DNA from: Acidobacteriota bacterium
GTDB lineage: Bacteria > Acidobacteriota > Terriglobia > Bryobacterales > Bryobacteraceae
Direction: 5' to 3'
DNA: 64,000 bases
Assembly: GCA_017304135.1 (NCBI GenBank)
Contig: JAFLBB010000007.1
Location: 7,404-71,403, forward strand
Part shown: positions 8,421 through 55,636 of the stretch, piece after piece
Layout: each line of letters starts with the position of its first letter
Numbering within the stretch: position 1 is the stretch's first letter
Translations under genes and position numbers: made by a program
Notes under the pieces: model-generated
Database searches by the model: none
What the model was told of the DNA's origin: nothing
Seen by the model: only the letters and a program-made list of their open reading frames with translations

Positions 8421-8905
8421 ACCTGAGGAGAAGCAGTGGCGCCAATACCGAACAAGGGGAGGGCGGGCATCGCCGCGCCTTCCTGGGATGGCTCACCAGC
8501 GTGGGTCTGTTCGGCTCGGCGGTGTTGAGCGCATTTTCCAATTTCGTATTCATCAAACCGCGCGCCACCTACGGCGCGCCGCAGCGGTTCAGCATCGGCA
8601 AGCCGGAGGATTTCCCGGCGGGGACGCGCATTGCCATCGAATCGCGCCGCATCTGCGTGGTGCGGGAAGGCGAGAAACTGGCGGCGATCTCCACCACCTG
8701 CACGCACCTGGGCTGCATCATCGGCATCAGCGACACGGGGTTTGCCTGTCCCTGCCATGGTTCGCGTTTCGATCAGGATGGCAATGTGACCGGTGGCCCG
8801 GCGCCGAGGCCGCTGCCCTGGTACAAGGTCTCGCTCGCGCCGAATGGCGAGGTCGAGGTGGACAAGGACGTTGAGATCGAGCCGGGGAGCTACCTGAACG
8901 TATGA
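8411..8905 (+). CDS. Rieske [2Fe-2S] iron-sulfur subunit of a cytochrome bc-type complex
   Basis: Rieske boxes CTHLGC and CPCHGS, a Tat-like N-terminus and one TM helix. AGGAGAAG Shine-Dalgarno upstream. Confidence 0.9.
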
Positions 8906-10224: not shown

Positions 10225-10233
10225 GGAGAGCCC

Positions 10234-12028: not shown

Positions 12029-12054
<26 letters not shown>
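10234..12054 (+). CDS. heptaheme c-type cytochrome subunit of the bc complex, with a CcoP-like diheme C-terminal module
   Basis: Seven CxxCH motifs: [52 protein letters not shown]. The last two carry the CxxCHG..G.G signature typical of CcoP/class-I domains. N-terminal TM anchor. AAGGAGAG Shine-Dalgarno upstream. Confidence 0.85.
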
Positions 12055-13426
<1,372 letters not shown>

Positions 13427-13444
13427 GGCACAAGGAGATTTCCC

Positions 13445-14014
13445 ATGCTGAGAAAAGCAGACAATAGCGCCTCCTGGGCCGTCGCCGCTTCGCTCGTCCT
13501 CTTCTCCATCGGCGGCATCCTCACCACCGTGGTGCCGCCGCTGGTGGACAGCTCGTGGGCCAAGCCCTTCGAGAACTCCGACCCCGCCAAGGGGCCAACG
13601 GGCAAGCTGACGCAACTGAATGAACTCCAGTTGCAGGGCCGCGCCATCTACGTCCGCGAAGGCTGCTGGTATTGCCACACACAACAGACGCGCACGCTGC
13701 TGGCCGACACCAAACGTTCCGGCTGGAAGGGCGTCGATTCGCCCGTCTCCACCCCCGACGAATTCGTCTACGACTCGCCGCACCTGTTCGGCACCAAGCG
13801 CACCGGGCCTGACCTGTCGCGCGTCGGCGGCAAGTACGACGAGCAATGGCACCGCACCCACTTCCGCAACCCGCGCGACCTCGTGCAGGGTTCCATCATG
13901 CCGCCCTACCCGTGGCTGGTGGAGAACCCGCAGGAGTTCAAAGCCATCGTCGCCTACATGCAGTCGCTCGGCCGCGCCAAGAACTGGCGCCCCAACGAAG
14001 ATTACGAACAGTGA
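13445..14014 (+). CDS. ccoO: cbb3-type cytochrome c oxidase subunit II (monoheme)
   Basis: N-terminal TM helix and a single CWYCH heme motif. Length and position are typical of CcoO/FixO. Confidence 0.9.
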   Translation: MLRKADNSASWAVAASLVLFSIGGILTTVVPPLVDSSWAKPFENSDPAKGPTGKLTQLNELQLQGRAIYVREGCWYCHTQQTRTLLADTKRSGWKGVDSPVSTPDEFVYDSPHLFGTKRTGPDLSRVGGKYDEQWHRTHFRNPRDLVQGSIMPPYPWLVENPQEFKAIVAYMQSLGRAKNWRPNEDYEQ

Positions 14015-14022
14015 GGAACGCC

Positions 14023-14202
14023 ATGACTGACTACACCTATCCGAGCGTCTATCTCGCCTACTTCTTCTTCGCCCTCATGGCCGGACTCGCCGTCTACTTC
14101 TGCGTCCGCTCGGCGCGCGACGGCTACTGGGGCGAGCATGCCGAGGATCCCAAGTATACGGTGTTCGACGACGACGAGCATAACGAAAGGAGCGCGTCAT
14201 GA
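14023..14202 (+). CDS. CcoQ-like small single-TM protein (59 aa)
   Basis: MTDYTYPSVYLAYFFFALMAGLAVYFCVRSARDGYWGEHAED…: one TM helix and an acidic tail, at the ccoQ position between ccoO and the ccoP-like gene. Called by position and size only. Confidence 0.4.
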   Translation: MTDYTYPSVYLAYFFFALMAGLAVYFCVRSARDGYWGEHAEDPKYTVFDDDEHNERSAS

Positions 14203-14525
14203 GTGACTCCACCAAGACGCCGCCCGCGGGCGGCCACGAGGAGTTGAAGGAGTACGCCGGCGGCTGGATGACCGAGCGCAAGGGCACCGACGCGCCGGCC
14301 TTCCTCAAACTCGCCTTCCCGATCATCGGGCTGTTCGCGACCGGCTATCTCGTCGTCTACATGTACGGCGAGGTGGCGCATGAGGACCGCGGCGCCCTCG
14401 TGCAGAAGTTCAACGAAGTCACGCAGACCTCGCCCACGCTGATGTATGCCGTGGCCGCCATGGCGCTGGTCTACGTCATCCTGCTTGTGTCGTTCGTCAT
14501 CCGCCAGTTCAAAGAGGAAGAGTAA
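14199..14525 (+). CDS. CcoP N-terminal-domain (FixP_N-like) membrane protein lacking heme-binding domains
   Basis: 108 aa, two TM helices, no CxxCH. GHEELKEYAGGWMTERKGTDAPAFLKLAFPIIGLFATGYLVVY aligns by eye with the conserved G-IEEYDNPLPRWW-(TM) segment at CcoP N-termini. AAAGGAG Shine-Dalgarno upstream. Confidence 0.45.
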   Translation: MSDSTKTPPAGGHEELKEYAGGWMTERKGTDAPAFLKLAFPIIGLFATGYLVVYMYGEVAHEDRGALVQKFNEVTQTSPTLMYAVAAMALVYVILLVSFVIRQFKEEE

Positions 14526-14527
14526 CT

Positions 14528-16462
14528 GTGACCAACGGGTCCTGGCAGCTTCGCGTGTTGGACGACTCGCAGTACTGGGTCGAGATGGTGAAGTGCCGCA
14601 ACGCGTGCCCGGTGAAGACCGACGCCTGCGGCTATGTGAACGCCATTGCCGAGGGGCGCTATGAAGAGGCCTACCGCATTGCGCGCGCCACAAATCCCTT
14701 CGCCTCCATCTGCGGCCGCGTGTGCGGCGCGCCGTGCGAGATGAACTGCCGCCGCGGTTCGCTCGACGAGCCGGTCTCGATTCGCGCACTGAAGCGGTTT
14801 GTCACCACGCAGTACGGCCCCGAGGCCGGCGACTACCGCATCTACCGCGAAGCCTGCGACCAGCGCATGCTGCCGGCCAACCGCGGCGACTACGAGAAGA
14901 TCGCCGTCGTCGGCGGCGGCGTCTCCGGACTCACCGTGGCGCACGACCTGATCCAGCTTGGCTACAAGGTCACCGTCTTTGAAGCGCACTCCGAACCGGG
15001 CGGCATGCTCATGGTGGGTGTGCCCGTGTTTCGCCTGCCGCGCGACCTCGTGCGGCATGAGATCCAGGCCATCCTCTCGATGGGCGTGGAACTGAAGTGC
15101 AACATGCGCCTCGGCCGCGATTTCACCATCGCCAGCCTGCGCGCCGAGGGCTACAAGGCCGTCTTTCTCGGCATCGGCCTGCCCAAGGGGCGCAAGTTGG
15201 CGATTCCGGGCTCTGAAACCGATGGCGTGTACGACGGCATGGAGTTTCTGCGCGCCTTCAACGAAGGCAAGCCCATGCCTCTGGGCCGCCGCATCATCGT
15301 CATCGGCGGCGGAAACGTCGCTTATGACGTCGCGCGCTCCGCCCTGCGCCCGGCCGAAGCCGCCGCCACGCGCGCCGAGACGCTTGAGGAGATGGGGCGC
15401 GGCGAACAGATGGCCTACGATGTGGCCCGCTCGGCGCTGCGCATGAGCGGCGATAAGGAAGTCCACGTGGTCTGCCTCGAGTCGCGCGAGGAGATGCCGG
15501 CCGACGACATCGAAGTTCACGAAGGCGAGGAAGAGGGCATTCATCTGCACAACCGGCGGGGTCCGCACGAGGTTCTCATGGAGAACGGCAAGCTCGCCGG
15601 CCTGCGCACCCGCAAGTGCACCTCCGTCTTCAACGAAGAAGGACGCTTCGATCCGAAATTCGAAGAAGAGGCCTTCGACGACATCCACGCCGACTCGATC
15701 ATCTTTGCCATCGGCCAAAGCTCGGACCTCTCCTTTCTCGCCCCGGAGGATGGCGTGGAGTCGGCGCGCGGGCTGATCAAGGTGAATCCGGAAACCTACC
15801 AGACCACGGCGCCGGACGTCTTTGCCTGCGGCGACATCGCCCACGGCCCGCGCCTGTTCATCGACGCCATCGCCTCGGCCCACACCGCCGCCCGATCCAT
15901 GCACGATTTTCTCCGCGGCACACGCACCGACATCGCCCTGCGCAAACAGTGGCTGCCGGCGGCCTACACGATGGCCGAAGGCTGGCACCGCATGGGCCGC
16001 ACGAATCCGCCCGTGCTGGAAACGCAGCGCCGCGCCGCCTCCATCGAAAACGTCGAAGAGAACTACCCCGAAGAGATGGCCAAGCGCCAGGCCGCCCGCT
16101 GCCTGCGCTGCAACGTGAACACGGTATTTGACACCTCCATTTGCATCGCCTGCAACGGCTGTGTCGATGTGTGCCCGGAAGATCTCATCAAGCTGGTCGG
16201 CCTGAGCCGGCTGTCTGATAACGATGCGTTTTCCAAACTCGCCGCCGCCGGCGCCGACCTGAGCCGCGATGAGTACGCCGCGCTGACGGTGGCCGAAAAG
16301 GACGAGTTGGGTGGTGTGATGCTTAAGGACGAATCCACTTGCATTCGCTGCGCCATGTGCGCCTCGCGTTGCCCGACGCATGCCATCACGATGAAGAAGT
16401 TCGACCACTATCAGGAATGCGTCACCATCCCGTCACCAAATCCCAAGGTTCTGTATCAGTAG
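14528..16462 (+). CDS. NAD(P)H-dependent FAD oxidoreductase, glutamate synthase small-subunit (GltD) family, with two extra C-terminal [4Fe-4S] ferredoxin domains
   Basis: GltD-type N-terminus (CRNACPVKTDACGY…FASICGRVCGAPCEMNCRRG). Two Rossmann motifs (VVGGGVSGL; IVIGGGNVAYD). C-terminal CLRCNVNTVFDTSICIACNGCVDVCPE plus CIRCAMCASRCP. GTG start at 14528. Contains a 31-codon in-frame duplication around AYDVARSALR. Confidence 0.8.
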   Translation: MTNGSWQLRVLDDSQYWVEMVKCRNACPVKTDACGYVNAIAEGRYEEAYRIARATNPFASICGRVCGAPCEMNCRRGSLDEPVSIRALKRFVTTQYGPEAGDYRIYREACDQRMLPANRGDYEKIAVVGGGVSGLTVAHDLIQLGYKVTVFEAHSEPGGMLMVGVPVFRLPRDLVRHEIQAILSMGVELKCNMRLGRDFTIASLRAEGYKAVFLGIGLPKGRKLAIPGSETDGVYDGMEFLRAFNEGKPMPLGRRIIVIGGGNVAYDVARSALRPAEAAATRAETLEEMGRGEQMAYDVARSALRMSGDKEVHVVCLESREEMPADDIEVHEGEEEGIHLHNRRGPHEVLMENGKLAGLRTRKCTSVFNEEGRFDPKFEEEAFDDIHADSIIFAIGQSSDLSFLAPEDGVESARGLIKVNPETYQTTAPDVFACGDIAHGPRLFIDAIASAHTAARSMHDFLRGTRTDIALRKQWLPAAYTMAEGWHRMGRTNPPVLETQRRAASIENVEENYPEEMAKRQAARCLRCNVNTVFDTSICIACNGCVDVCPEDLIKLVGLSRLSDNDAFSKLAAAGADLSRDEYAALTVAEKDELGGVMLKDESTCIRCAMCASRCPTHAITMKKFDHYQECVTIPSPNPKVLYQ

Positions 16463-16469
16463 AACTAGA

Positions 16470-17180
16470 ATGACGGCTCTGGAATTCTCCATTCCGTTCG
16501 GTTTGGGACTGGTTTCCAGTCTCCACTGCACGCAGATGTGCGGTCCGCTCGTGCTTGCCTATAGCACGCCGATCCAGGGCGCGCGTCGAGCCGGGCTCAC
16601 GGCGCATCTTTCCTACAACCTGGGCAGGCTGTTCACCTATTCCCTGCTCGGCGCCGCCGCCGGCTTCGCCGGTGGAGGCATTGCCGCCCTCGGCCGGCTG
16701 GCGGGGGTGGAGAAGACGGCCGCCATCGTTGCAGGCATCGCCATGATCATCGCCGCCATCTTAATGGCCGGCTGGCTGCCGAAGAGTACATTAGTGCAAC
16801 TTGGCTCAGGACCATCCTGGATTTCGCGCACCGCGGGGCGTCTGCTGCGGTCAGCGGAACCTGTGCACAAGTTCGCGCTTGGCCTGGTGCTGGGGCTGCT
16901 GCCCTGCGGACTGATTTACGCCGCGCTGCTGAAGGCCATGGAAACGGGCTCGGCGCTGGACGGCGGTCTCACGATGTTTGCCTTCGGATTGGGCACCTCG
17001 GGCGCGCTGCTCGCGATAGGGCTCTTTTCCACCGCCATCACCGCCCGCCTGGGCCGGTACGCCAACACGTTTGCCGCGGTCAGTGTCGCCCTGATGGGGG
17101 CCTACCTGCTGTGGCACGGTTTGCGCGCCGCCCCCACGGGCGCCGGCACGGGGGCATGCCATCATGGCCACACCTCCTAG
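16470..17180 (+). CDS. TauE/SafE-annotated DsbD_2-like polytopic membrane protein with HCxxMCGP motif
   Basis: 236 aa, about 6 TM helices, N-terminal SLHCTQMCGPL motif, Gly/Ala-rich helices. Start overlaps the preceding stop. Confidence 0.55.
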   Translation: MTALEFSIPFGLGLVSSLHCTQMCGPLVLAYSTPIQGARRAGLTAHLSYNLGRLFTYSLLGAAAGFAGGGIAALGRLAGVEKTAAIVAGIAMIIAAILMAGWLPKSTLVQLGSGPSWISRTAGRLLRSAEPVHKFALGLVLGLLPCGLIYAALLKAMETGSALDGGLTMFAFGLGTSGALLAIGLFSTAITARLGRYANTFAAVSVALMGAYLLWHGLRAAPTGAGTGACHHGHTS

Positions 17181-18519
17181 CGCGCCGCCCAAACCGAAGC
17201 TGGTACGTCTGCCGCCGCTGCCACCCGCCGATACGGTCTACCATCGCATTCGCAAGCGCGTCCACCTGATCTTCTTCCTCATTTTCGTCGCGCTCCCGTT
17301 TTTCAATGTGATGCGCTTCGACATCCCCCGCCAGCGCTTTTACTTCGCCGGCTTCGAGCTGTGGATCAACGAATTCGCCATCATCTTTTTCGCGCTGATG
17401 TTCTTCATGTTCGTCATCGCGGCGTCGGCCATTCTCCACGGGCGCGTCTATTGCAGCTACGCCTGCCCGCAGATGATTTTCAGCGAATGGAGCATCACGG
17501 TGGAGCGCTGGGCCCAACAGCGCATCAACCGCCGTTTCCCCAAGTGGCCCGCCGCGCGGAAGAAGATTGCCCAGCAGTCCATCTTTTACTCCGTGCTGCT
17601 GGTGGCTTCGGTCTTCCTTGCCTTCGTCTTTACGGCCTACTTTGTCGAGCCGCGCGATCTGTTGGCCCGCCTGTTCAGCTTCGATTTGCAAACCGCGGGG
17701 GGCATCACCGGGGCCATTGTGACGGCCATCACGTTTCTCGATTTCACGCTCGTGCGCCTGCGCTTCTGCACCACGGTCTGCCCGTACGGCTACCTGCAAG
17801 GGATGCTCCAGGACAGGAATACGCTGCTGGTGATCTACCGCGACGGCAAGGACGAGCAGAAGGTCTGCATCGAGTGCAAGAAGTGCGTGCGCGTGTGCGA
17901 AATGGGCATCGACATCCGCGAGTCGCCCTACCAGATCGAATGCGTGCATTGCGGCGAGTGCATCGACGCTTGTGAAGACGTGTTGCGCAAGGTGGGCCGC
18001 CCTGGCCTGATCCACTACGCCTGGGGCGAGCAGAGTGCGCCGGCTCCGGCCGCAAAGCAACGCGAGCCCCTGCTTCACCGCCTCGGCCTGCGCGACGCCA
18101 AACGCATCGGCATCGCCCTCATCCTGGTCTTCTATTTGTTCGGACTGATGGCGGTTCTTTCCATGCGCCGCCCGGTGATGGTGCGCGTCATTCCAGACCG
18201 CACAACGCTGTTCCAGGATCTGGGCGATGGGCGCATCGGGAACACCATCCGGCTGCATCTGGTGAATCGCGGCAGCACGCCGACCGAGGTCCGCTTCTGG
18301 GTGGAGAATCTCCCTGGCGCGGAGATCGGCATCACGCCGAACCCGCTCACGCTCGCCCCTGGTGAGGAGATCCAGCGGTCGTTCGAACTGCGCGCCCACC
18401 CCTGGAGCGGGGCGCAAGATGTGAACCGCTTCCGCTTTCTGGCGCAACCCTCCAACGAAACCACACCGGACCAGTTCGACCTCACCTTCATCATGCCCGT
18501 GCCCAAGCCCACGCGATAG
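17164..18519 (+). CDS. ccoG: cytochrome c oxidase accessory protein CcoG/FixG (polyferredoxin)
   Basis: N-terminal TM helices, then CSYACPQ, CTTVCPYG, CIECKKCVRVCEMGIDIRE and CVHCGECIDACE ferredoxin motifs, plus a C-terminal Ig-like region. Typical CcoG architecture. Confidence 0.9.
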   Translation: MATPPSAPPKPKLVRLPPLPPADTVYHRIRKRVHLIFFLIFVALPFFNVMRFDIPRQRFYFAGFELWINEFAIIFFALMFFMFVIAASAILHGRVYCSYACPQMIFSEWSITVERWAQQRINRRFPKWPAARKKIAQQSIFYSVLLVASVFLAFVFTAYFVEPRDLLARLFSFDLQTAGGITGAIVTAITFLDFTLVRLRFCTTVCPYGYLQGMLQDRNTLLVIYRDGKDEQKVCIECKKCVRVCEMGIDIRESPYQIECVHCGECIDACEDVLRKVGRPGLIHYAWGEQSAPAPAAKQREPLLHRLGLRDAKRIGIALILVFYLFGLMAVLSMRRPVMVRVIPDRTTLFQDLGDGRIGNTIRLHLVNRGSTPTEVRFWVENLPGAEIGITPNPLTLAPGEEIQRSFELRAHPWSGAQDVNRFRFLAQPSNETTPDQFDLTFIMPVPKPTR

Positions 18520-18530
18520 GATGAGAACCA

Positions 18531-18701
18531 ATGCCTGATCGAGCCAACGCCAGTTCCGCCAAACCACGCTCTTACTTTCCCCTGTTTCTCAGCGCCATCT
18601 TCGTCCTCTTTCTCGGCCTCCTGGCTTACACCTGGATTGGCGCCGAGAAGGCCAACCCCGTGATCCTGGATGAGCACGGGCAGCCGCGCGACCGTCGATA
18701 A
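18531..18701 (+). CDS. small single-TM membrane protein (56 aa) at the ccoH position
   Basis: ATG 18531: MPDRANASSAKPRSYFPLFLSAIFVLFLGLLAYTWIGAEKANPVILDEHGQPRDRR*. Sits between ccoG and ccoI where ccoH/fixH usually is, but is far shorter than FixH. Not in the ORF track because it is under 60 aa. Confidence 0.3.
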   Translation: MPDRANASSAKPRSYFPLFLSAIFVLFLGLLAYTWIGAEKANPVILDEHGQPRDRR

Positions 18702-18703
18702 CC

Positions 18704-21178
<2,475 letters not shown>

Positions 21179-35552: not shown

Positions 35553-36194
35553 ATGAAAAAGTGGATGGTATTGCTGCCCCTGGCCGCGATGTGCGCGCAC
35601 GGGGCAATTATCGGAGTGAGCGGCCCCAACAGCACTCCTGGACAGGGGGTAACGGCCTGCCCGTCTACAGCAGCGTCTATCATCGCCGCGCCGGGGTCGG
35701 TCGTCGACGATGCTCCGGGCGCGACGAACTGTGCCCAGCAGGGCTTTGACGAAAAGCAGGGTGTCCTGCTAGCGGCGAACCTGAACACGGACGCGCCGGG
35801 CGCAAGCAACATTCTGGCGGGAACCTTGGTCAACAGCCACATGATCTTCCTGAACACCAATGGCAACGTGAATGTCCTGCACGACGGCGTGGTCTGGGAG
35901 TTTGATGGCCTCATCCTCGGCGTGATGTCGAACCAAAGCGGCACACTTGAGGCGAATTCCAGTGCTGCGTTGGGTGCCGCGGGCACGACGTATCCGGCCG
36001 CGTTTGGCAGCCGCGGGCTGGAATCACGCGACAGCTATTCGATCAACGGCCGCTTCCTGACAGTCAACATGCAGGTGACCGAACCGGGAGACTGGATTCG
36101 CGTGGTCACATCACCCGTTCCCGAACCCGGCACCTACGCGCTTATGGGCGCTGGCCTCATGGCGCTGGGCTTCCTGCGCCGCAGGAAGGCGTAA
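35553..36194 (+). CDS. PEP-CTERM sorting-domain secreted protein
   Basis: Signal peptide MKKWMVLLPLAAMCAHGA. C-terminal VPEPGTYALMGAGLMALGFLRRRKA. GGAGGAG Shine-Dalgarno upstream. Confidence 0.7.
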   Translation: MKKWMVLLPLAAMCAHGAIIGVSGPNSTPGQGVTACPSTAASIIAAPGSVVDDAPGATNCAQQGFDEKQGVLLAANLNTDAPGASNILAGTLVNSHMIFLNTNGNVNVLHDGVVWEFDGLILGVMSNQSGTLEANSSAALGAAGTTYPAAFGSRGLESRDSYSINGRFLTVNMQVTEPGDWIRVVTSPVPEPGTYALMGAGLMALGFLRRRKA

Positions 36195-46817: not shown

Positions 46818-48088
46818 GATCGCTCGCCGCTCCCTTTGCCGCGCCGTTTGCCCAGCCGCTGACAGCGCAGTCCAACGCGCTCGACGCCTACATCCCGCGT
46901 CTTGAAAAGGCGCTCTACGAAAACGCCAATCCGTTCTGGTTCCCGCGCTCGCTTGACCGCGAGCGGGGCGGCTATGCGATCAACCACAACGCGCAGGGGC
47001 TCCCCAACGGACGGTCGACGAAGATGATCGTGACGCAGGCGCGCATGGTCTGGTATTTCTCGCGGATGGTGCGGGCCGGCATGACCAGGCCCGCCACAAA
47101 GGCGCAGTTCACCGAAGCCGCAGAACACGGGCTGCGGTTCCTGCGCACGAAGATGTGGGACCAGAAGCACGGCGGCTACTACTGGGAGGTGGAGCGCGAC
47201 GGCGCGCCGCGGCGCGACCAGAAGCACCTCTACGGGCAGTCGTTCGCGCTGTATGCGCTGAGCGAGATGGCCATCGCGCTGCGCAGCCGCGAGGCGCTGG
47301 CGGCGGCCACCGAGTTGTTCCACCTGCTCGAAAAACACTCGCACGATGCCCAAAACGGCGGTTACGTGGAATGTTTCGAGGCCGACTGGTCAGAGACACC
47401 GGAGGCCAAGCCGGGCCCCATGGGTCCATCGCGCCTGAAGCTGATGAACACGCACCTCCACCTGATGGAGGCCATGACCACCTTCTACCAGGCGTCGATG
47501 CTGCCCATGGCCCGCGAACGGCTGCTCGAGCTCATGACCATTGAGTCAAACACCGTGGTCCGCAAGGACATCGCCGCCTGCGCCGACAAGTACACACGCG
47601 ATTGGAGGCGCCTCACCGAAGGCGACTACGCGCGCGTGAGCTACGGTCACGATCTCGAAAATGTCTGGCTCCTCATGGAGGCGGCCAAAGCGGCCGGCGT
47701 GTCCGATGCGCCTCTGTATGACCTGTACAGAGTGAACTGGGCCTACTGCCTGAAGCATGGCTGGGACGCGGCGCACGGGGCGTTTTGCGATAGCGGGCTG
47801 CCCGGCCGGACGGCCGACCGCCGCCAAAAGGTCTGGTGGGTACAGGCCGAGGTGCTCGTCTCGGCGCTCAAGATGTACCGGCTCACAGGCGAGGCGGTGT
47901 ACCGCGAAGTCTTCGAGAGGACCTGGGCATTTGTCGAATCGAAGCTGATCGATTGGAAGACTGGCGAGTGGCACTCCGAGGTCACCGCCGAAGGCCAGCC
48001 GCGCGGCGAAAAGGCGCAAATGTGGAAGGCCGGCTACCACAACGGCCGGGCGCTGGTGGAGTGCCTGGCCGAGTTGCGGCGGGCCTAA
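46784..48088 (+). CDS. N-acyl-D-glucosamine 2-epimerase (AGE) superfamily protein with Tat-like N-terminus
   Basis: HRRTFLGSLAAPFA Tat-like motif. (α/α)6-barrel repeats typical of AGE/cellobiose-2-epimerase/YihS proteins (…LYGQSFALYALSE…; …VWWVQAEVLVSALKMYRLTGE…; …AGYHNGRALVE…). Overlaps the thrB end by 34 nt. Confidence 0.65.
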   Translation: MAHAHHRRTFLGSLAAPFAAPFAQPLTAQSNALDAYIPRLEKALYENANPFWFPRSLDRERGGYAINHNAQGLPNGRSTKMIVTQARMVWYFSRMVRAGMTRPATKAQFTEAAEHGLRFLRTKMWDQKHGGYYWEVERDGAPRRDQKHLYGQSFALYALSEMAIALRSREALAAATELFHLLEKHSHDAQNGGYVECFEADWSETPEAKPGPMGPSRLKLMNTHLHLMEAMTTFYQASMLPMARERLLELMTIESNTVVRKDIAACADKYTRDWRRLTEGDYARVSYGHDLENVWLLMEAAKAAGVSDAPLYDLYRVNWAYCLKHGWDAAHGAFCDSGLPGRTADRRQKVWWVQAEVLVSALKMYRLTGEAVYREVFERTWAFVESKLIDWKTGEWHSEVTAEGQPRGEKAQMWKAGYHNGRALVECLAELRRA

Positions 48089-48119
48089 CGCGGCGGGCCC
48101 GAGCCGCGGCGCGTCCACC

Positions 48120-49037
48120 CTACTGCATGAAGGTCTCGAAGAACTTGCGCATCTGCAGGTAGGCCGGACCGAGCGTCACCAGCAGCACCGAGGGGAAGAT
48201 CAGGAAGAAGACCGGCAGCACGAGCTTGACGGTCAGCTTGCGCGCCTTCTCCTGGGCTGCGAAACGCATGTGCGTGCGCAGGTATTTCGAGTGCGTGCGC
48301 AGCGCCGGGCCGAGGCTGGTGCCGAAACGTTCGCCATCGATCAGCAGCGCCGCCAGCTTGGCCAGCTCCGATTCGCCGCTGCGCTGGGCCAGGTGTTCCA
48401 GTGCCTCGTAACGCGATTTTCCGGCGCGCATCTCCAGGTGGCAGAAGAGAAACTCGGCGCACAGGTCAGGGTAGACGCGGCGCAGGCTGCGGGCTGTATC
48501 GAGCATGGCCGAATCGAGCGACTGGCCGGCCTCAATGGCCAGCGTGAGCAGGTCCAGCGCCGGAGCCACGGCGGTGCGGACGCGGGCAGCACGGGCCCTC
48601 ACTAGGAACTCCACCCCGCGCGGCGGCAGCAGGAAACCAAACCCCGCGCCGCACACGGCGGCCAGCAAAGCGTTCGCGGCGCCCCCGCTCACCAGTCCCC
48701 CGGCCCACAGCCCGGCAAAGGCAAGCATGCCGGCGCTGGCGATGCGAAGCCCGGAGAACACGGCGAGCGCCGACGGGTCGCGATAGCCGGCGCGAAAGAG
48801 TTTCTTGCGCAGACGGTCACCTTCGTTGCCCCGGGCCGGCATCAGCGCGCCAAGCGTGCCCAGGAGCGCGGCAAGCGCCGAGCCGGCGGCAAGGGCAGGT
48901 TCGGGATCGCCGATCAGCCTCTCGCGCTCAGGCGGCGCGCCGGCCGTGGCGTCGGCCGTGCGCAGACGCAACACCAGGTAGCCGCCGCCGGTGACGGCAA
49001 GCAGGACGAAGGCGAAGAAGGCGGCAATGATCAACAT
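48120..49037 (-). CDS. type II secretion system F-family protein (TadC-like)
   Basis: 305 aa. N-terminal TM helix, cytoplasmic GspF-like domain, C-terminal TM helices. Tandem with a paralog. Confidence 0.7.
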   Translation of the reverse strand: MLIIAAFFAFVLLAVTGGGYLVLRLRTADATAGAPPERERLIGDPEPALAAGSALAALLGTLGALMPARGNEGDRLRKKLFRAGYRDPSALAVFSGLRIASAGMLAFAGLWAGGLVSGGAANALLAAVCGAGFGFLLPPRGVEFLVRARAARVRTAVAPALDLLTLAIEAGQSLDSAMLDTARSLRRVYPDLCAEFLFCHLEMRAGKSRYEALEHLAQRSGESELAKLAALLIDGERFGTSLGPALRTHSKYLRTHMRFAAQEKARKLTVKLVLPVFFLIFPSVLLVTLGPAYLQMRKFFETFMQ

Positions 49038-49044
49038 GGGGGCC

Positions 49045-50022
49045 TCAAATGCGAATGTCCACCAGTTTGCTGATCACCAGGTGAGCCAGCACCAGGCAAA
49101 CGACCGCGGCAAAGATCAGGTCCTTCCCGATCGGGTGGAACCACAACGTCAGCATGTGCGAGGGATTCACCCACATCATCATGCCGGCGATACCCACCGG
49201 CAGGAAGGTCAGGATCGCCCCCGTCATCCGCCCGTGCGCGGCAATCGACCGGATCTCGCTTTTCAGCGCGTAGGACTCGCGCATCGTCTCGGCCAGCCGC
49301 GACAGCACCTCATGCAGACGCCCACCCGTCCGGCTCTGCAACTGAATCGCAGCGGCAAAGAGGTGAATCTCAGCCACCGGCACGCGTGAGGCGAAGTTCT
49401 CCATCACCTGGTCGAGCGACAGCCCAAGGGCACGTTCATCGGCCACTTTGCGCATCTCCTGCGACAACGGCGCTTTGCACTCCCGGGCCAGCATCTCCAA
49501 CCCCGTCGCAATCGGATTTCCCGCCCTCAGCGAACGCGCCAGGGACTCAAGCGCTTCTGGAAATTGTTCTTCGATCTTATTGAGACGAAGCCTCCTACGC
49601 CTCATGATCATGAGGTAGGGCGCAGCTCCCGCCGCGAGGCCGCCTACGAGGGTCACGTAGCCGGGGATAAAGGTGAACGTTGCCAGGAACGCCCAAAACG
49701 AGGCCGCCGCCAGGAGCATCATGGCCGTTGTCCGGCCCACGCTCCAACGCATGCCGGCTTCGGCGATATGGGCCTGCAGGTTCTGGGTAGCGTTGATGCG
49801 CTCCAGCAGGCCACCCCAGAAGCCGATCGTACTCAACGCTTCATCACGCAGCAGGTTGGAGTCAAGCGCGGGCGACCATTCCACGTGCTCGCCCCCGGGG
49901 GCATCAAGGTCAGGCTGGGACGCGCTCCGTGGCGGCTCCACCATCGGCCTGGCGGCAGCCACGGCGACGATAACCGCCAGAAAGGTTCCGGCGAAGACAG
50001 CGGTGAGAATCAGGGGCAGCAT
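49045..50022 (-). CDS. type II secretion system F-family protein (TadB-like)
   Basis: 325 aa, same architecture as above. The paralogous pair is typical of tadB/tadC. Confidence 0.7.
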   Translation of the reverse strand: MLPLILTAVFAGTFLAVIVAVAAARPMVEPPRSASQPDLDAPGGEHVEWSPALDSNLLRDEALSTIGFWGGLLERINATQNLQAHIAEAGMRWSVGRTTAMMLLAAASFWAFLATFTFIPGYVTLVGGLAAGAAPYLMIMRRRRLRLNKIEEQFPEALESLARSLRAGNPIATGLEMLARECKAPLSQEMRKVADERALGLSLDQVMENFASRVPVAEIHLFAAAIQLQSRTGGRLHEVLSRLAETMRESYALKSEIRSIAAHGRMTGAILTFLPVGIAGMMMWVNPSHMLTLWFHPIGKDLIFAAVVCLVLAHLVISKLVDIRI

Positions 50023-50037
50023 GGCGGGCCTCCAGAA

Positions 50038-51351
50038 CTAGCGGATGGCCGCCGTGCGCAGCGGTTCGGTGACGGCTGGCGTCACCACCACCATCAGGCG
50101 GCGGCCCGCGGCCTGGCCCTTGTGCGAAAACAGGCGCTCCATCACCGCGGGTACCTCTCGTTCCTCGGCGAGTCCCCCGACGAGAATACTCTGCCCGTTA
50201 GCCAGTTCCACGTCAGCCTCGACGCGGCGGATGGCGGTGCCTTCGCCTTTTGGCCAGGCCAACTCGGGGCGCACATGGAGTTTCAGCCCCCCATTCGAAG
50301 TGAGCGTCGGCCGCAATTGCATGCGCAGGGCGTACCCGGCGTGGCGGCCCGAGTCGAGCATCACATCGCGCTCGTGGCCGGCCGTCAAGCGGCTGCTAGA
50401 AACTACTTGAAGTTTATTGCCTTTTTCTAGCATTCCAAAGGCTGTTTCCCAACCTGATCCAGGCGGAAGAATGGCGATCCGGGGAGAATCGCCGGAGAGC
50501 TTCGCGAGCAGGCCCGGATCGAGCCGGCTGAGCGCTTCCTCACCTGCCCCCACGACGCGAATCAGGAAGCTCACCTGCCCCTGGCTGCGAACTGGCAGCG
50601 GCTCTGAAGTGACCTGCGACAGCGAGATGGCGACAGGGCGCCGCGCCGGGGAGCGGCCCGTCATCACGCCGGACAGCGAAGCGGGAGAAAGCGGCGAAGA
50701 GTCTGCATCGAGAGGGTTTCGTAGCGTCAGCCGGACGCGCGCGCCGGAATCGACCGCGGCCACGCGGTCAGCGTCGGCGGGGCGAATGAGCAGGGTCACC
50801 ACCGGAAGCGTCGAGCGTCCCGGCGTAGGTTCAGGCTTGGCATCCACGCGCAGCACCTCGACGTTTTCCAGTATCGTCCGCACATCCACTTCGGCCTGGT
50901 TGCCGCGGATGTGGACGGCTTGCACATCCACCTTATGTCCTCGTTGCAATATTCCCAGCAAACCTGTTGAATCGCTGACCATTACGGAGATGGCTCGCAT
51001 CCCTTTCGGAATCCCCAGTCCGGCGCCGGCACCGGTGTGGGCGGAAGCCACGCGCGGCTTGGTGACGGCCTCGTTGGCGGCAATCGGCTCCAGTGTGGTC
51101 AGCCCGGCAAGCTCCTGCAAGGTGGCGTGCGCCCCCTCTGGCGCGGCGCCCGACCAGTGGATCACCTTGAGGTCTTCCTCGGTCAAGGTGGCCCCCTTGG
51201 CAATGTTGCGGCTGGCAACCACCACGCTGCGGCCTCCGGAAGCGGGTTCTCCGAGTCTGCCCGCCACCAGCCCGTAGAAAATCGCCGTGGACAAGATGGC
51301 CACCACCACCGCTATGCCGAGTAAGGGAACCAGATTCTTTTTCATCACCAT
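50038..51351 (-). CDS. Flp pilus assembly protein CpaB/RcpC (SAF domain) with a secretin-like C-terminal extension
   Basis: Start ATG 51351 (MVMKKNLVPLLGIAVVVAIL; GGAGA Shine-Dalgarno) with an N-terminal TM helix. SAF/CpaB region (…VVVASRNIAKGATLTEEDL…). The C-terminal ~150 aa end in …NGQSILVGGLAEEREVP…RRLMVVVTP…, resembling the secretin C-domain consensus. Confidence 0.6.
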   Translation of the reverse strand: MVMKKNLVPLLGIAVVVAILSTAIFYGLVAGRLGEPASGGRSVVVASRNIAKGATLTEEDLKVIHWSGAAPEGAHATLQELAGLTTLEPIAANEAVTKPRVASAHTGAGAGLGIPKGMRAISVMVSDSTGLLGILQRGHKVDVQAVHIRGNQAEVDVRTILENVEVLRVDAKPEPTPGRSTLPVVTLLIRPADADRVAAVDSGARVRLTLRNPLDADSSPLSPASLSGVMTGRSPARRPVAISLSQVTSEPLPVRSQGQVSFLIRVVGAGEEALSRLDPGLLAKLSGDSPRIAILPPGSGWETAFGMLEKGNKLQVVSSSRLTAGHERDVMLDSGRHAGYALRMQLRPTLTSNGGLKLHVRPELAWPKGEGTAIRRVEADVELANGQSILVGGLAEEREVPAVMERLFSHKGQAAGRRLMVVVTPAVTEPLRTAAIR

Positions 51352-51604
51352 ATGCCGTCTCCAGCCGGCGGATCGCCCCGGGATTCCGGCACACTCCCGG
51401 TGTGCGGAGGGCTTTGGCCCCAGGGTAAGCCTCTTGCCAATATCGGCAGAATCGGGCGAACCCATTAACCGGGCGGGGAAATGGCCGTGGGCGCGGGCGA
51501 TGCAGTCGCGCAGCCCAGGCGCGCCAGAGGTTCGCGCGCACGTGACGGGACACAAGAGGGAAGGGGCGGGCGCGACGGGCAGTCCGCCCCATTTGGACCT
51601 TCGG

Positions 51605-52432
51605 TTACTGCCGTCGGGCCGGCAGGGCGGCGGCTATGCCGGTGGCGGCGGCGCTGCAAACTGGGTGGCCCCAGCCGCTCGCGCTGACGCCCGTGGAGTG
51701 CCCGGGTTCGGTCACGATGTCATGGACGATATTGTCCGGGCGGGCCGCGTCGCCGCTGACGCCGGCCGGGAGGTAGTCCAATTGCAATGCGTTGCGGACG
51801 CGCCAGGCGATGATGTGGTCGGCGCACGAGGTGTCGCCGGAAACCCCCAGCCCGCCGATCAGGTTGCGGCCAAAGGTGTACAGTCCCAGTCCGCCCCCGA
51901 AGATGTTGACGCCGCCAATGCGGCCGCCCACCATCGGATCATTCCCGTCGCCGTTCAGCTTCGGGTTCCCCCGGTAGGCGACCTCCGGGTCCACCGGGTT
52001 GCTGTGCTGCAGTCCGGCCAGCGAGCCGCCAGGCTGCACGGCGCTGTACAGATTGGCCGTGGATAGCGCCAGGGCATTCAAGCTAAACGCATTGGCAGTG
52101 TTCGCCTTCTGCGCGGCGATGACCCGGCTGCCGGGCCACTGGTCCGCACGCGTGGGGCCGGTGTAGGCAACCACGCACACCACGCCGTCGCGGTTCACAA
52201 TGGACGCCCACATGTGGTTGCCCAAGCCGCCGTTGGTCTGGCCGCTGTTCAACCCGCGCGCCGCGATCAGGGCATTGCGCAGTTCGAAATGGGTGGGCAG
52301 CCCCTTGCAGGCTTCGCGTGAATCGCGTCCGTTGTTGTCCGCGTCATCGGTTTGGCCCCAGACCGCTGGGGTGAAGGTGAACAGAGTCGCCGCCATGGCC
52401 AACGTGGCCACGGAGCGTGGAAGTCTGTGCAT
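51605..52432 (-). CDS. secreted GlcG/HbpS-like (DUF336) heme-binding family protein
   Basis: Signal peptide MHRLPRSVATLAMAATLFTFTPAVWGQ. …RIGGVNIFGGGLGLYTFGRNLIGGLGVSGDTSCADHIIA… matches the DUF336 'GG.pi…GaiGVSGg…D..cA' signature. Confidence 0.5.
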   Translation of the reverse strand: MHRLPRSVATLAMAATLFTFTPAVWGQTDDADNNGRDSREACKGLPTHFELRNALIAARGLNSGQTNGGLGNHMWASIVNRDGVVCVVAYTGPTRADQWPGSRVIAAQKANTANAFSLNALALSTANLYSAVQPGGSLAGLQHSNPVDPEVAYRGNPKLNGDGNDPMVGGRIGGVNIFGGGLGLYTFGRNLIGGLGVSGDTSCADHIIAWRVRNALQLDYLPAGVSGDAARPDNIVHDIVTEPGHSTGVSASGWGHPVCSAAATGIAAALPARRQ

Positions 52433-52636
52433 GGCTCGTGATCTCCTTTACATGCCTGGACGGGGCGAGTCCATTCTCACACGGAGGGATGAAAAGGGGA
52501 AGCAGGTGTTCCCCCGAGGTCCTCCAGATTCCGCTGGTGGGGATTGACGCTCAGGCGCGGAAGGAGTAAATTCCGCTGTTTGAAGGTGTTCGAAGGGGTG
52601 CATGACGACAGGGCCTGGGCGGAAGGCGAGTCGACT

Positions 52637-53314
52637 ATGGTTCTCGGTTTTGGCCGGGGCGCACTGCGCCTCACAGGCGTGATGTTCACGGCATGGTGCT
52701 GCTCAGCCATCGCGCTGCCTCAGGATGTGAGCGGAACATGGGAGGTGATCTTCAAGGGCAGCGTGAGGACAAAGTTGGTGCTCCACCAGCAGGGCTCGGC
52801 TGTCACCGGTGTGTTGACCACCACGGACAACTCGCGCGGCGAAGTAAAGGGCACGTTCGCGGGAGGCCGCCTGCGCCTGGAGCGCGATACGGGATTGAAG
52901 ACCGTCCAGCGCTATGAGGTTGACGTCGCGGGCGATGAATTCCGCGGCCACTTCCGCAATGTGGGCGCCTATCCCGACGACGGAACCTTCACCGGCCGGC
53001 GCGTCGCCAGCGGATCCCCCGGCAGCGCCCTCGTGGACGGAGTGTGGGTCGTCTATTTCAAAGAACGCGACAGGACGACTCTCACGCTCAAGCAAAACGG
53101 CGATACGGTGACAGGCACGCTCGTGACCACCGACCGCTCGCGGGGGGAGGTCCGCGGAACCGTGAAACGGAACGTGCTGACGCTCATGCGGGACACTGGG
53201 CTGGCCACCATCCAGCACTACCAGGTGACCATCGAGGGTGACCGGTTCACGGGACGCTTCCGCAACGAAGGCCGCTGGCCGGACGAAGGCAGCTTCACCG
53301 GGCGGCGGGAGTAA
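52637..53314 (+). CDS. secreted protein built from two tandem ~100-aa repeats
   Basis: ATG 52637 with GGAAGG Shine-Dalgarno and a signal peptide. Repeat 1 (SGTWEVIFKGSVRTKLVLHQQGSAVTGVLTTTDNSRGEVKGTF…FTGRR) and repeat 2 (DGVWVVYFKERDRTTLTLKQNGDTVTGTLVTTDRSRGEVRGTV…FTGRRE) are collinear. Confidence 0.5.
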   Translation: MVLGFGRGALRLTGVMFTAWCCSAIALPQDVSGTWEVIFKGSVRTKLVLHQQGSAVTGVLTTTDNSRGEVKGTFAGGRLRLERDTGLKTVQRYEVDVAGDEFRGHFRNVGAYPDDGTFTGRRVASGSPGSALVDGVWVVYFKERDRTTLTLKQNGDTVTGTLVTTDRSRGEVRGTVKRNVLTLMRDTGLATIQHYQVTIEGDRFTGRFRNEGRWPDEGSFTGRRE

Positions 53315-54830: not shown

Positions 54831-54916
54831 TAGTTGAAGATGCCGGCAGGGACTTCGAGGTCGTTCTTTCTCCGTTGTGAAGTAAGATGGAAAACAACCT
54901 TCAGGACGGAGGACTC

Positions 54917-55636
54917 ATGCGGTTGACTTATGGATTCACTCGATTGCTGCCCCTACTCGGGCTTCTTTTAGCACTGGGCGGAGAAGCCCGCGCTGCGCTC
55001 CTGAGCGAAGCGGTGTTTGCCTACTCGGGAGGAGCCACCGGCGGGACCTACCTGGTCATCAACACCTCGCTCGGCGAGACCATCCTCCCCTCGGTGGCAC
55101 GGGGATGGTACGACGAGACCGGCGCGGATAACGGAGCCACCGCAACGAACAACTACATTGCCGGACTGTGCGGCTCCGCCGATGGTTGCGATTCAGTCGA
55201 TCTGAGATTTCGGAACTGGTTCATGTTCAGCCCGACCGAACTGCCGCCCACCATCCTCGGCGCGACCCTCTATCTGGAGGTTCCGGCGGTGAATGGTTTT
55301 GCCAGCCCCCAGGGCGTGGAATCCTACACGCTCTACTCGGTGGAGTACGGACCGCCGGCGATCACGAATGGCGCCGGCCTGCCCGGCTACTATGACCTCG
55401 GCGACGGAACGGTGTACGGCGCGCGTGACTACACACCGGCCGATAGGGGGACGACGCCAGGCATCGTCCTCAACTCGGCCGCCGTGGACGCGCTCAAAGT
55501 GCTGGCCCTGCAGGGCGGCAACTTCATCCTCGGAGGCGCCGTCACAAGCCTCGACGAAACCGCGGTGCCGGAACCGGGCACGGGGGGCCTCCTCGCAGCC
55601 GGGTGTGCCCTGTTCGTCCTGCTGCGCAAACGGTAG
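54917..55636 (+). CDS. PEP-CTERM sorting-domain secreted protein
   Basis: Signal peptide MRLTYGFTRLLPLLGLLLALGGEARA. C-terminal VPEPGTGGLLAAGCALFVLLRKR. Confidence 0.7.
   Translation: MRLTYGFTRLLPLLGLLLALGGEARAALLSEAVFAYSGGATGGTYLVINTSLGETILPSVARGWYDETGADNGATATNNYIAGLCGSADGCDSVDLRFRNWFMFSPTELPPTILGATLYLEVPAVNGFASPQGVESYTLYSVEYGPPAITNGAGLPGYYDLGDGTVYGARDYTPADRGTTPGIVLNSAAVDALKVLALQGGNFILGGAVTSLDETAVPEPGTGGLLAAGCALFVLLRKR

What the first reader, a model, noticed from the sequence alone, without database searches (positions are those of the whole stretch)
48120..51351. Partial Tad/Flp locus without ATPase, and a CpaB protein with a secretin-like C-terminus
- Only tadB, tadC and a cpaB-like gene are present. 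No cpaF/tadA ATPase, cpaE, pilin or prepilin peptidase lies adjacent.
- The CpaB-like protein is about 150 aa longer than usual, and its tail (…NGQSILVGGL…RRLMVVVTP) resembles the secretin C-domain signature.
- This suggests a fused inner-membrane/outer-membrane conduit component.
Basis: partly seen in the sequence, partly recalled or inferred. Interest (0 to 1): 0.55.

Follow-up and report, generated by a model that had tools for sequence, protein, structure and literature searches.

The report
CpaB fused to a mini-secretin
In this soil acidobacterium (order Bryobacterales), a three-gene pilus-machine operon encodes an inner-membrane "alignment" protein joined in one chain to a stripped-down outer-membrane pore domain, a conserved, selected and apparently undescribed variant of the Tad pilus machinery whose motor ATPase must be encoded elsewhere.

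Summary
Window 48120-51351 (- strand) is a tight operon of cpaB-like (437 aa), tadB-like and tadC-like genes. No ATPase, CpaE, Flp pilin or prepilin peptidase was detected in the 64-kb window.

The extra ~180 C-terminal residues of the CpaB homologue are a genuine secretin module.
- A family profile matches the Tad secretin RcpA (PDB 8odn) best, E=4e-13.
- The module is reduced. The Gate 1 tip is gone, and it has two further ~11-residue deletions, no N-terminal pilus domains and no S-domain.

It is not an assembly artefact.
- The same cassette stands alone in at least 80 Bryobacterales species genomes, in unrelated neighbourhoods.
- dN/dS is 0.04-0.19 for the secretin module.

Related systems give context.
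- A sister acidobacterial clade has cpaB::secretin-cpaF-tadB-tadC with the gates kept, so the window's cassette looks like a further reduced form that lost cpaF.
- Close relatives have cleanly lost the secretin module.
- Bryobacteraceae also carry complete canonical tad operons and stand-alone cpaE-cpaF pairs, so an ATPase in trans is plausible.
- Co-occurrence in one genome was not shown.

Verdict: new variant of a known kind. The pore function is inferred, not shown.

The parts
51358..51362 (-). Shine-Dalgarno-like GGAGA, 6 nt upstream of the ATG at 51351
   Evidence: Sequence read. Homologues start at the equivalent MKKN/MKRN.
50038..51351 (-). cpaB::secretin fusion gene (437 aa)
   Evidence: TIGR03177 119.4 bits, SAF and RcpC above cut-off, Secretin sub-threshold. 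Full-length homologues at 33-94% identity.
51259..51333 (-). N-terminal hydrophobic helix (aa 7-31), the predicted inner-membrane anchor
   Evidence: AlphaFold helix 7-31. Conserved LVPLLGIAxVVAI..FYGL. RcpC has the same anchor (PMC12307814).
51049..51225 (-). SAF domain (aa 43-101), equivalent to CpaB/RcpC domain 1
   Evidence: Pfam SAF 36.8 bits. Foldseek hit to RcpC 9gzr, E=2e-11.
50719..51012 (-). RcpC beta-clip domain (aa 114-211), equivalent to CpaB/RcpC domain 2
   Evidence: Pfam RcpC 57.9 bits. Foldseek hit to 9gzr.
50581..50706 (-). Pro/Ser/Ala-rich flexible linker (aa 216-257)
   Evidence: pLDDT below 50 for aa 232-254. Poorly conserved. dN/dS 0.1-0.68, higher than the flanking domains.
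50422..50577 (-). N3-like ring-building domain (aa 259-310), without the ~29-aa insert of the two canonical CpaC-type secretins aligned
   Evidence: Beta-alpha-beta-alpha elements at pLDDT 84-95. Alignment with canonical CpaC-type secretins.
50068..50412 (-). Reduced secretin core (aa 314-428): barrel strands, a short amphipathic helix (VPAVMERLFSHK) and the last strand (RRLMVVVTP). It lacks the Gate 1 tip and two further ~11-aa segments.
50041..50067 (-). C-terminal tail VTEPLRTAAIR. The same P(V/L)RTAxxR motif ends the short-form CpaB of close relatives.
   Evidence: Alignment A3. The 3' ends of the long and short genes align.
49045..50022 (-). tadB-like platform gene (325 aa, one T2SSF domain)
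   Evidence: Pfam T2SSF 68.8 bits. dN/dS 0.06 against L010. 42-43% identical to TadB of the four-gene cassette, against 35% to canonical Bryobacteraceae TadB.
48120..49037 (-). tadC-like platform gene (305 aa, one T2SSF domain)
   Evidence: Pfam T2SSF 51.9 bits. dN/dS 0.10 against L010.

Best explanation
The region is a self-contained three-gene operon of a reduced Tad-like (type IVc pilus family) machine, typical of the acidobacterial order Bryobacterales.

Shown:
- The first gene fuses the inner-membrane alignment protein CpaB/RcpC to the core of a Tad-type secretin. The chain runs: transmembrane helix, SAF domain, RcpC domain, flexible linker, N3-like domain, secretin core.
- The fusion removed the secretin's own N-terminal domains. 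The short RcpA-type Gate 1 tip and two other ~11-residue loops are also missing.
- The other two genes encode the TadB/TadC platform.

Inferred mechanism:
- About 12-14 copies of the fusion assemble around TadB/TadC.
- Their SAF/RcpC domains form the periplasmic alignment ring.
- Their linkers cross the periplasm.
- Their secretin cores form a small barrel at the outer membrane with little or no gate. This gives a single-polypeptide conduit with fixed 1:1 ring-to-pore stoichiometry.
- The energy, pilins and peptidase come from genes elsewhere. A sister clade keeps cpaF inside the cassette. Bryobacteraceae have CpaF in canonical tad operons and in stand-alone cpaE-cpaF pairs, so the ATPase is most likely supplied in trans.
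For: Fusion and domain identity.

Reduction of the secretin:
- The 17-residue gap falls exactly on the RcpA Gate 1 tip, P241-Y256 (against PMC10499894).
- Three deletions and the missing N3 insert appear in the alignment.

Conservation:
- 274 homologues in the protein search.
- 203 relatives in species-representative genomes. The best 80 are all MAGs labelled Bryobacterales, Bryobacteraceae, Solibacteraceae or, more broadly, Acidobacteria/Terriglobia.
- 71 clusters at 50% identity with E below 1e-30.
- L010 is collinear with the window at ~90% nucleotide identity.

Selection: dN/dS is 0.04-0.19 for the secretin module, 0.04-0.15 for the CpaB domains, 0.06 for tadB and 0.10 for tadC.

Stand-alone cassette:
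- Only tadB and tadC are universally conserved neighbours.
- No CpaF was found in the 89 Bryobacterales cassette loci.
- No Flp pilin was found there, with a positive control.

Origin:
- The four-gene cassette with a gated fused secretin occurs in all four full contexts examined.
- The canonical order cpaB-cpaC-cpaE-cpaF-tadB-tadC explains a fusion of neighbouring genes.
- The window's TadB is closer to the four-gene type.

ATPase in trans:
- Bryobacteraceae CpaF occurs in full tad operons.
- It also occurs in stand-alone cpaE-cpaF pairs, seen on four independent contigs.
- Ca. Solibacter usitatus Ellin6076 has 4 CpaF and 4 CpaE (PMC3174227).

Known biology: RcpC forms a periplasmic ring that docks on RcpA (PMC12307814). 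CpaB is bridged to CpaC by CpaI in Caulobacter (PMC13170226).
Against: - No multimer model, localisation data or expression data exist. Outer-membrane insertion and pore formation are inferred from homology alone.
- The window protein alone is below Pfam's Secretin cut-off.
- The gates that normally seal a secretin are missing, so an open pore would need some other seal.
- Close relatives (82% identical in the CpaB half, syntenic on the tadC side) have lost the module cleanly. It is therefore dispensable, or redundant with another secretin.
- Bryobacteraceae have canonical CpaC secretins.
- The partner ATPase, pilin and peptidase of this genome were not found. Co-occurrence of the cassette with a cpaF locus in a single genome was not demonstrated.
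Confidence: 0.6

Rival explanations
1. The secretin-like module does not form its own outer-membrane pore. It forms a periplasmic ring or adaptor, for example docking under or co-assembling with the separate canonical CpaC secretin encoded elsewhere, or simply stabilising the CpaB ring. The cassette would then be an alternative alignment and platform module for the canonical Tad machine.
For: - Gate 1, the putative Gate 2 and the loop before the amphipathic helix are deleted, and there is no S-domain.
- Short forms without the module occur in close relatives and repeatedly across the tree.
- Bryobacteraceae carry complete tad operons with a CpaC of ~530 aa.
Against: - The barrel strands, the helix at the position of the amphipathic helical loop and the last strand are kept and are under strong purifying selection.
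- In the sister clade, the fused and still gated secretin is the only secretin within 8-10 kb of cpaF-tadB-tadC. This argues that the fused domain began as the working pore.
Confidence: 0.27
2. The cassette is an evolutionary remnant of a Tad locus that lost its ATPase and is decaying, with no function.
For: - There is a reductive series from canonical locus to four-gene, three-gene long-form and three-gene short-form cassettes.
- No ATPase, pilin or peptidase lies in cis.
Against: - The ORFs are intact in at least 80 species-level genomes that have diverged to 32-40% identity.
- dN/dS is 0.04-0.19 for all three genes and both halves of the fusion.
- The operon spacing is tight and a ribosome-binding site is present.
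Confidence: 0.05
3. The long ORF is an assembly or frameshift artefact, or the secretin resemblance is a chance match.
For: Only the sub-threshold single-sequence Pfam score.
Against: - The same architecture appears in independent assemblies from many studies.
Confidence: 0.01

Closest known systems
RcpC / CpaB, the Tad pilus alignment protein (P. aeruginosa RcpC, PDB 9gzr; C. crescentus CpaB)
   Same: - N-terminal transmembrane helix followed by SAF and RcpC (D1, D2) domains.
- Passes TIGR03177.
- Foldseek E=2e-11 to 9gzr.
- Encoded next to tadB and tadC.
   Different: - RcpC ends in a beta-hairpin that docks non-covalently on the N-domain of the secretin (PMC12307814). In Caulobacter, CpaI bridges CpaB and CpaC (PMC13170226).
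- Here the tail is replaced by a covalently attached N3-plus-secretin module.
RcpA / CpaC, the Tad secretin (PDB 8odn)
   Same: - An N3-like domain, barrel strands, a helix at the position of the amphipathic helical loop and the terminal strand are all present.
   Different: - No signal peptide, pilus-N/BON or VirB9-like N-domain, and no S-domain.
- The Gate 1 tip (RcpA P241-Y256) is absent.
- It is ~11 aa shorter in the segment I take to be Gate 2 and ~11 aa shorter before the amphipathic helix.
- The core is ~115 aa, against ~165 aa in the aligned RcpA core (Pfam Secretin model: 169 positions).
- No TadD-like pilotin gene lies nearby.
Four-gene acidobacterial cassette cpaB::secretin-cpaF-tadB-tadC (L090, L092, L173, L174; proteins P0220, P0298, P0285, P0282)
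   Same: - The same fusion architecture and gene order.
- The same loss of the N3 insert and of the loop before the amphipathic helix.
- TadB is 42-43% identical.
- It also stands alone, without Flp (regex, all five loci) or any other Tad-family Pfam domain (four full contexts) within 8-10 kb.
   Different: - It keeps a CpaF-type ATPase between the fusion gene and tadB.
- It keeps Gate-1-length and Gate-2-length segments.
- Four of five members tested pass the Pfam Secretin cut-off, up to 58.5 bits.
- I found no published description of it either.
VirB10 of type IV secretion systems (functional analogy, from my own knowledge)
   Same: A single polypeptide anchored in the inner membrane that reaches, and contributes to, the outer-membrane channel.
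   Different: It is unrelated in sequence and fold. VirB10 inserts helices, not a secretin barrel.
GspC-GspD and PilP-PilQ pairs of type II secretion and type IVa pili (from my own knowledge)
   Same: An inner-membrane-anchored periplasmic protein contacts the secretin to align the two membrane complexes.
   Different: They are separate proteins that interact non-covalently, and their secretins are full-length and gated.

Membership tests
CpaB/RcpC (TIGR03177) | Score above the curated cut-off of the equivalog model, with SAF and RcpC domains | tested here: met
   TIGR03177 119.4 bits (cut-off 71), SAF 36.8 (21), RcpC 57.9 (28.8).
CpaB/RcpC (TIGR03177) | N-terminal inner-membrane anchor helix | tested here: met
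   Hydrophobic aa 7-31 predicted as a helix and conserved in the family. Membrane insertion itself was not tested.
CpaB/RcpC (TIGR03177) | C-terminal beta-hairpin that docks on the secretin N-domain (RcpC) | tested here: not met
   The tail is replaced by a linker plus the N3/secretin module. The hairpin requirement comes from PMC12307814.
Secretin (Pfam PF00263) | Score above the Pfam gathering cut-off (27.5 bits) | tested here: not met
   22.3 bits for the whole protein and 26.0 bits for the C-terminal 183 aa. Other family members match Pfam Secretin (12 of 21 at E<=0.01, best E=9e-14). Sister-clade fusions reach 58.5 bits.
Secretin (Pfam PF00263) | Homology to solved secretins by profile and by fold | tested here: met
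   [not shown]
Secretin (Pfam PF00263) | Periplasmic gate (Gate 1 and Gate 2 hairpins) | tested here: not met
   The 17-19 residues covering RcpA P241-Y256 are absent. A further ~11 aa are missing in the segment I assign to Gate 2; that assignment is my inference.
Secretin (Pfam PF00263) | Sec signal peptide and own N-terminal periplasmic domains (N0, pilus-N, BON) | tested here: not met
   The module sits at aa 255-437 of an inner-membrane-anchored protein. No pilus-N or BON hit, unlike canonical CpaC P0219 and P0242.
Secretin (Pfam PF00263) | Assembly into a 12-15-mer double barrel in the outer membrane | not testable with these tools
   Only monomer AlphaFold models could be made.
Tad / Flp (type IVc) pilus system | TadB and TadC platform proteins (single T2SSF domain each) | tested here: met
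   T2SSF 68.8 and 51.9 bits. 35-37% identical to TadB/TadC of a canonical Bryobacteraceae tad operon.
Tad / Flp (type IVc) pilus system | CpaF/TadA ATPase encoded with the system | tested here: not met
   None in the window or in the 89 related cassette loci. It is present in the sister four-gene cassette. Elsewhere in this genome was not testable.
Tad / Flp (type IVc) pilus system | Flp pilin, prepilin peptidase (CpaA/TadV) and CpaE/TadZ | tested here: not met
   No Pfam hits in the window. The Flp pattern is absent, with a positive control. The rest of the genome was not available.

The most novel reading that the evidence does not exclude
The fusion protein is a self-sufficient, pilotin-independent trans-envelope channel with no gate. 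It would be the smallest natural secretin (~115-residue core), locked 1:1 to its alignment ring. The ATPase-less cassette would be an alternative conduit and platform that borrows the CpaF/CpaE motor and pilins of another locus, so one motor would serve two different envelope machines. The stand-alone cpaE-cpaF pairs seen in Bryobacteraceae would be the complementary half of such a split system.
Probability: 0.25. Interest if true: 0.78.

Novelty: new variant of a known kind. Interest (0 to 1): 0.6.

Why it matters
- How the inner-membrane platform of Tad pili is aligned with the outer-membrane secretin is only now being worked out. RcpC docks on RcpA through a beta-hairpin. In Caulobacter, CpaI acts as a bridge.
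- A natural covalent CpaB-secretin fusion is independent evolutionary evidence for that contact. It also removes the symmetry mismatch between the 12-mer ring and the 13-14-mer pore.
- The module is a minimal secretin core without the usual gates, S-domain or pilotin. That makes it attractive for asking what is the least needed to build a secretin barrel and how such a pore is kept closed.
- The graded series found here is a natural deletion experiment, carried out in one of the most abundant soil bacterial groups. The series runs: canonical operon, four-gene fused and gated, three-gene fused and gateless, three-gene without secretin.
- The cassette lacks its own ATPase, which raises the testable idea of motor sharing between machines.

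Tried and rejected
- The promoter/terminator scan of 47900-51800 was uninformative: one promoter-like site on the wrong strand and one weak terminator-like site inside tadC.
- The word-indexed protein search with the C-terminal profile returned only four hits, mostly fragments. The exhaustive representative search replaced it.
- The afdb50 fold library was not available, so no UniProt entries from cultured strains were identified.
- An exact look-up of the window's own fusion protein found nothing on record.
- I could not place the cassette and a cpaF locus in the same genome. The WGS prefixes of the cpaE-cpaF MAG (JBEKIM01) and of the cassette loci do not coincide, and loci are limited to +/-10 kb.
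- The DNA alignment of long and short alleles shows that the two 3' ends align, but it gives no clean junction or microhomology. Loss is the more parsimonious reading of the tree, but deletion versus insertion is not proven.
- Six literature searches found no description of a CpaB-secretin fusion or of acidobacterial Tad cassettes. The library is not exhaustive.
- I considered that shorter hits of 150-300 aa might be stand-alone mini-secretins. The two I checked lie on contigs of about 1 kb, so they are probably gene fragments. I did not count any of these hits as evidence.
Full report
**What is there.**
- On the - strand of window 48120-51351 lie three tightly spaced genes.
  - A CpaB-like gene at 50038-51351 (437 aa).
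  - A tadB-like gene at 49045-50022 (325 aa).
  - A tadC-like gene at 48120-49037 (305 aa).
  - The gaps between them are 15 and 7 nt.
- The ATG at 51351 is preceded by GGAGA. It corresponds to the start of the homologues.
- TadB and TadC each carry one T2SSF domain.
- The first protein passes the curated CpaB model and the Pfam SAF and RcpC models.
- The flanking genes are unrelated.
  - On one side are a GlcNAc-2-epimerase-like gene, thrB, a GFO oxidoreductase and dnaE.
  - On the other are an HbpS-like gene, a repeat protein, a photolyase-related gene and a PEP-CTERM protein.
- Pfam scans of the 48 ORFs that a GC3-based caller picked in the 64-kb window found no T2SSE ATPase, CpaE-type ATPase, prepilin peptidase or separate secretin.
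  - tblastn with an acidobacterial CpaF was negative.
  - A Flp-pilin pattern was negative. The same pattern recovers Flp genes in 27 of 80 canonical tad loci.

**The C-terminal extension is a secretin module.**
- On the single sequence, Pfam Secretin is just below threshold (22.3 and 26.0 bits against 27.5).
- I aligned 39 full-length homologues (A1) and cut out 21 C-terminal regions (A2).
- A profile of A2 against all PDB sequences returns almost only secretins (18 of 21 matches listed up to E=10).
  - The P. aeruginosa Tad secretin RcpA (8odn) is first at E=4.3e-13.
  - GspD, PilQ and phage pIV follow.
- Twelve of the 21 members hit Pfam Secretin on their own, best E=9e-14.
- AlphaFold models are confident for this part.
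  - Full length: pLDDT 77, with 80-95 in the C-terminal domain.
  - Domain alone: pLDDT 88, pTM 0.85.
- Foldseek matches the N-terminal half to RcpC (9gzr, E=2e-11) and the rest to secretins. For the domain model, the top 38 PDB hits are all secretins.

**It is a reduced secretin.**
- In the HMMER alignment, a 17-residue gap falls on RcpA residues ~239-256. The RcpA paper defines P241-Y256 as the flexible tip of Gate 1 (PMC10499894).
- An alignment with RcpA, two canonical CpaC-type secretins and other fusions shows further differences.
  - About 11 residues are missing after the PE(L/I)S strand. I take this segment to be Gate 2; that assignment is my inference.
  - About 11 residues are missing before the helix at the position of the amphipathic helical loop.
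  - A ~29-residue insert of the N3 domain, present in the two canonical CpaC-type secretins aligned, is missing.
- There is no pilus-N/BON N-domain and no S-domain.
- What remains is an N3-like domain, the barrel strands, a short amphipathic helix (VPAVMERLFSHK) and the last strand (RRLMVVVTP).

**It is real, conserved and selected.**
- The protein search found 274 homologues, many full-length at 33-94% identity. Several are named as coming from Bryobacteraceae MAGs.
- A scan of one genome per species found 203 relatives.
  - The best 80 loci are all MAGs labelled Bryobacterales, Bryobacteraceae, Solibacteraceae or, more broadly, Acidobacteria/Terriglobia.
  - L010 is collinear with the window at ~90% nucleotide identity over 21 kb.
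- An exhaustive profile search found 71 clusters (50% identity) at E below 1e-30, mostly 420-470 aa with the module at about residues 250-440.
- Nei-Gojobori dN/dS over 20 pairs gave the following.
  - Secretin module: 0.04-0.19.
  - CpaB domains: 0.04-0.15.
  - Linker: 0.10-0.68.
- For tadB and tadC against L010, dN/dS is 0.06 and 0.10.
- A frameshift or assembly artefact and a decaying remnant are both excluded.

**The cassette stands alone.**
- In contigs from unrelated neighbourhoods, the order cpaB-tadB-tadC is the same.
- Clustering of all ORFs in 89 related loci shows that tadB and tadC are the only neighbours conserved throughout. The next family is in 27 loci.
- None of these loci has a CpaF-like gene or an Flp-like gene within +/-10 kb.

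**Where it came from.**
- More distant hits of the profile are a second group of SAF-RcpC-Secretin fusions of 483-516 aa.
  - They keep Gate-1-length and Gate-2-length segments.
  - Four of five pass the Pfam Secretin cut-off, up to 58.5 bits.
  - One member is labelled Acidobacteria.
- In all four full contexts examined, their operon is cpaB::secretin - T2SSE ATPase (413-453 aa) - tadB - tadC. It again stands alone.
- Canonical loci recovered with that ATPase have the order flp-...-cpaB-cpaC-cpaE-cpaF-tadB-tadC. The fusion therefore joins two neighbouring genes.
- The window's TadB is 42-43% identical to the four-gene type, against 35% to canonical Bryobacteraceae TadB. TadC and CpaB are less decisive.
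- The simplest reading is a reductive series with four stages.
  - Canonical operon.
  - Four-gene cassette: fusion, with cpaE lost.
  - Three-gene cassette: cpaF lost and gates trimmed.
  - Short form.

**Loss of the module.**
- Short CpaB proteins (240-307 aa) occur in the same three-gene cassette.
- In a tree of the CpaB half, long and short forms are interleaved. A short clade (P0005-P0011, 80-84% identical to the window) is nested inside the window's long clade.
- L004/L012 is syntenic with the window on the tadC side.
- The short proteins end in P(A/T)PVRTA(T/N)LR and the long ones in EPLRTAAIR. The 3' ends of the genes align. The difference is therefore an internal in-frame module indel.
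- The module is dispensable in some lineages.

**Where the motor may be.**
- Exact look-up shows that the CpaF of metagenome contig L105 is NCBI MGD0363358.1, a 'CpaF family protein [Bryobacteraceae bacterium]', in a 229-member cluster.
- One member lies in a complete canonical operon: Flp, CpaB 297 aa, CpaC 527 aa with pilus-N and Secretin, CpaE, CpaF, TadB and TadC (L175-L177).
- L105, L178, L179 (GCA_050011755.1) and L180 carry a stand-alone cpaE-cpaF pair. It sits between a LuxR-type regulator and a TonB-dependent-receptor-like gene, without cpaB, cpaC, tadB or tadC.
- Ca. Solibacter usitatus Ellin6076 is reported to have 4 CpaF and 4 CpaE (PMC3174227).
- ATPases are thus available in the family. 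I could not show that a cassette and a cpaF locus share one genome.

**Mechanism.**
- Shown:
  - the domain order of the fusion;
  - homology to RcpC and RcpA;
  - loss of the gates;
  - operon structure with TadB/TadC;
  - conservation and purifying selection.
- Inferred:
  - the fusion oligomerises like RcpC, a dodecameric periplasmic ring (PMC12307814), and like RcpA, a 13-14-mer (PMC10499894);
  - the ~40-residue linker spans the periplasm;
  - the reduced core forms an outer-membrane barrel;
  - a CpaF encoded elsewhere drives TadB/TadC.
- The main rival is that the module is a periplasmic ring or adaptor for a separate CpaC. The missing gates, the repeated loss of the module and the presence of canonical CpaC in the family all keep this rival alive.

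**Comparison and novelty.**
- The parts are known families. CpaB membership is met except for the C-terminal hairpin.
- Secretin homology is met by profile and by fold. The protein fails the single-sequence Pfam cut-off and lacks gates, N-domains and an S-domain.
- The Tad system as a whole is not complete in cis.
- The domain combination is visible in precomputed Pfam annotations of public proteins. Six full-text searches found no description of it, nor of the three-gene and four-gene cassettes.
- I rate it a new variant of a known kind, of moderate to high interest for people who study secretins and type IV filaments.

Noticed in passing
window 52544-53314 (+): A 256-aa protein with no Pfam hit. 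It is built of two ~95-aa internal repeats, each ending ...RDTGLxTxQxYxVxxxGDxFxGxFRNxGxxPDxGxFTGRR.
   Followed up: no
window 8411-21178 (+): One gene string joins a Rieske protein, cytochrome b, a 606-aa multihaem cytochrome c, a CcoN-like oxidase subunit, FixO, a Fer4/pyridine-nucleotide oxidoreductase, DsbD_2, a FixG-like protein and a P-type ATPase. It looks like a bc-type complex clustered with a cbb3-type oxidase and its assembly genes.
   Followed up: no
window 35553-36194 (+) and 54887-55636 (+): Two PEP-CTERM-type secreted proteins. The first is a Pfam hit. The second ends in VPEPGTGGLLAAGCALFVLLRKR but has no Pfam hit.
   Followed up: no
L009 14389-15788; L007 716-1078, 5900-6307, 21068-21296; ORF clusters 4, 18 and 19: In 12-23 of the related three-gene loci, a response regulator, CheX and CheW lie just downstream of tadC, and PilZ genes lie nearby in L007. 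This could be subclade synteny or a regulatory link to the cassette.
   Followed up: partly
L112 7816-12206: A Bryobacteraceae contig (its CpaF is HUI54041.1) carries yet another reduced cassette: cpaB (322 aa, no secretin)-cpaF-tadB-tadC, without cpaC or cpaE.
   Followed up: partly
L105 3442-6079; L178, L179, L180: A stand-alone cpaE-cpaF pair in a Bryobacteraceae lineage. It is 86-92% identical to the pair in the canonical operon but lacks cpaB, cpaC, tadB and tadC around it. It may be the complementary half of a split system.
   Followed up: partly
window 51605-52432 (-): An HbpS-like (haem-degrading family) protein with an apparent signal peptide sits 253 bp upstream of the cassette on the same strand. 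It is not conserved next to the cassette in other genomes, apart from the collinear L010.
   Followed up: partly
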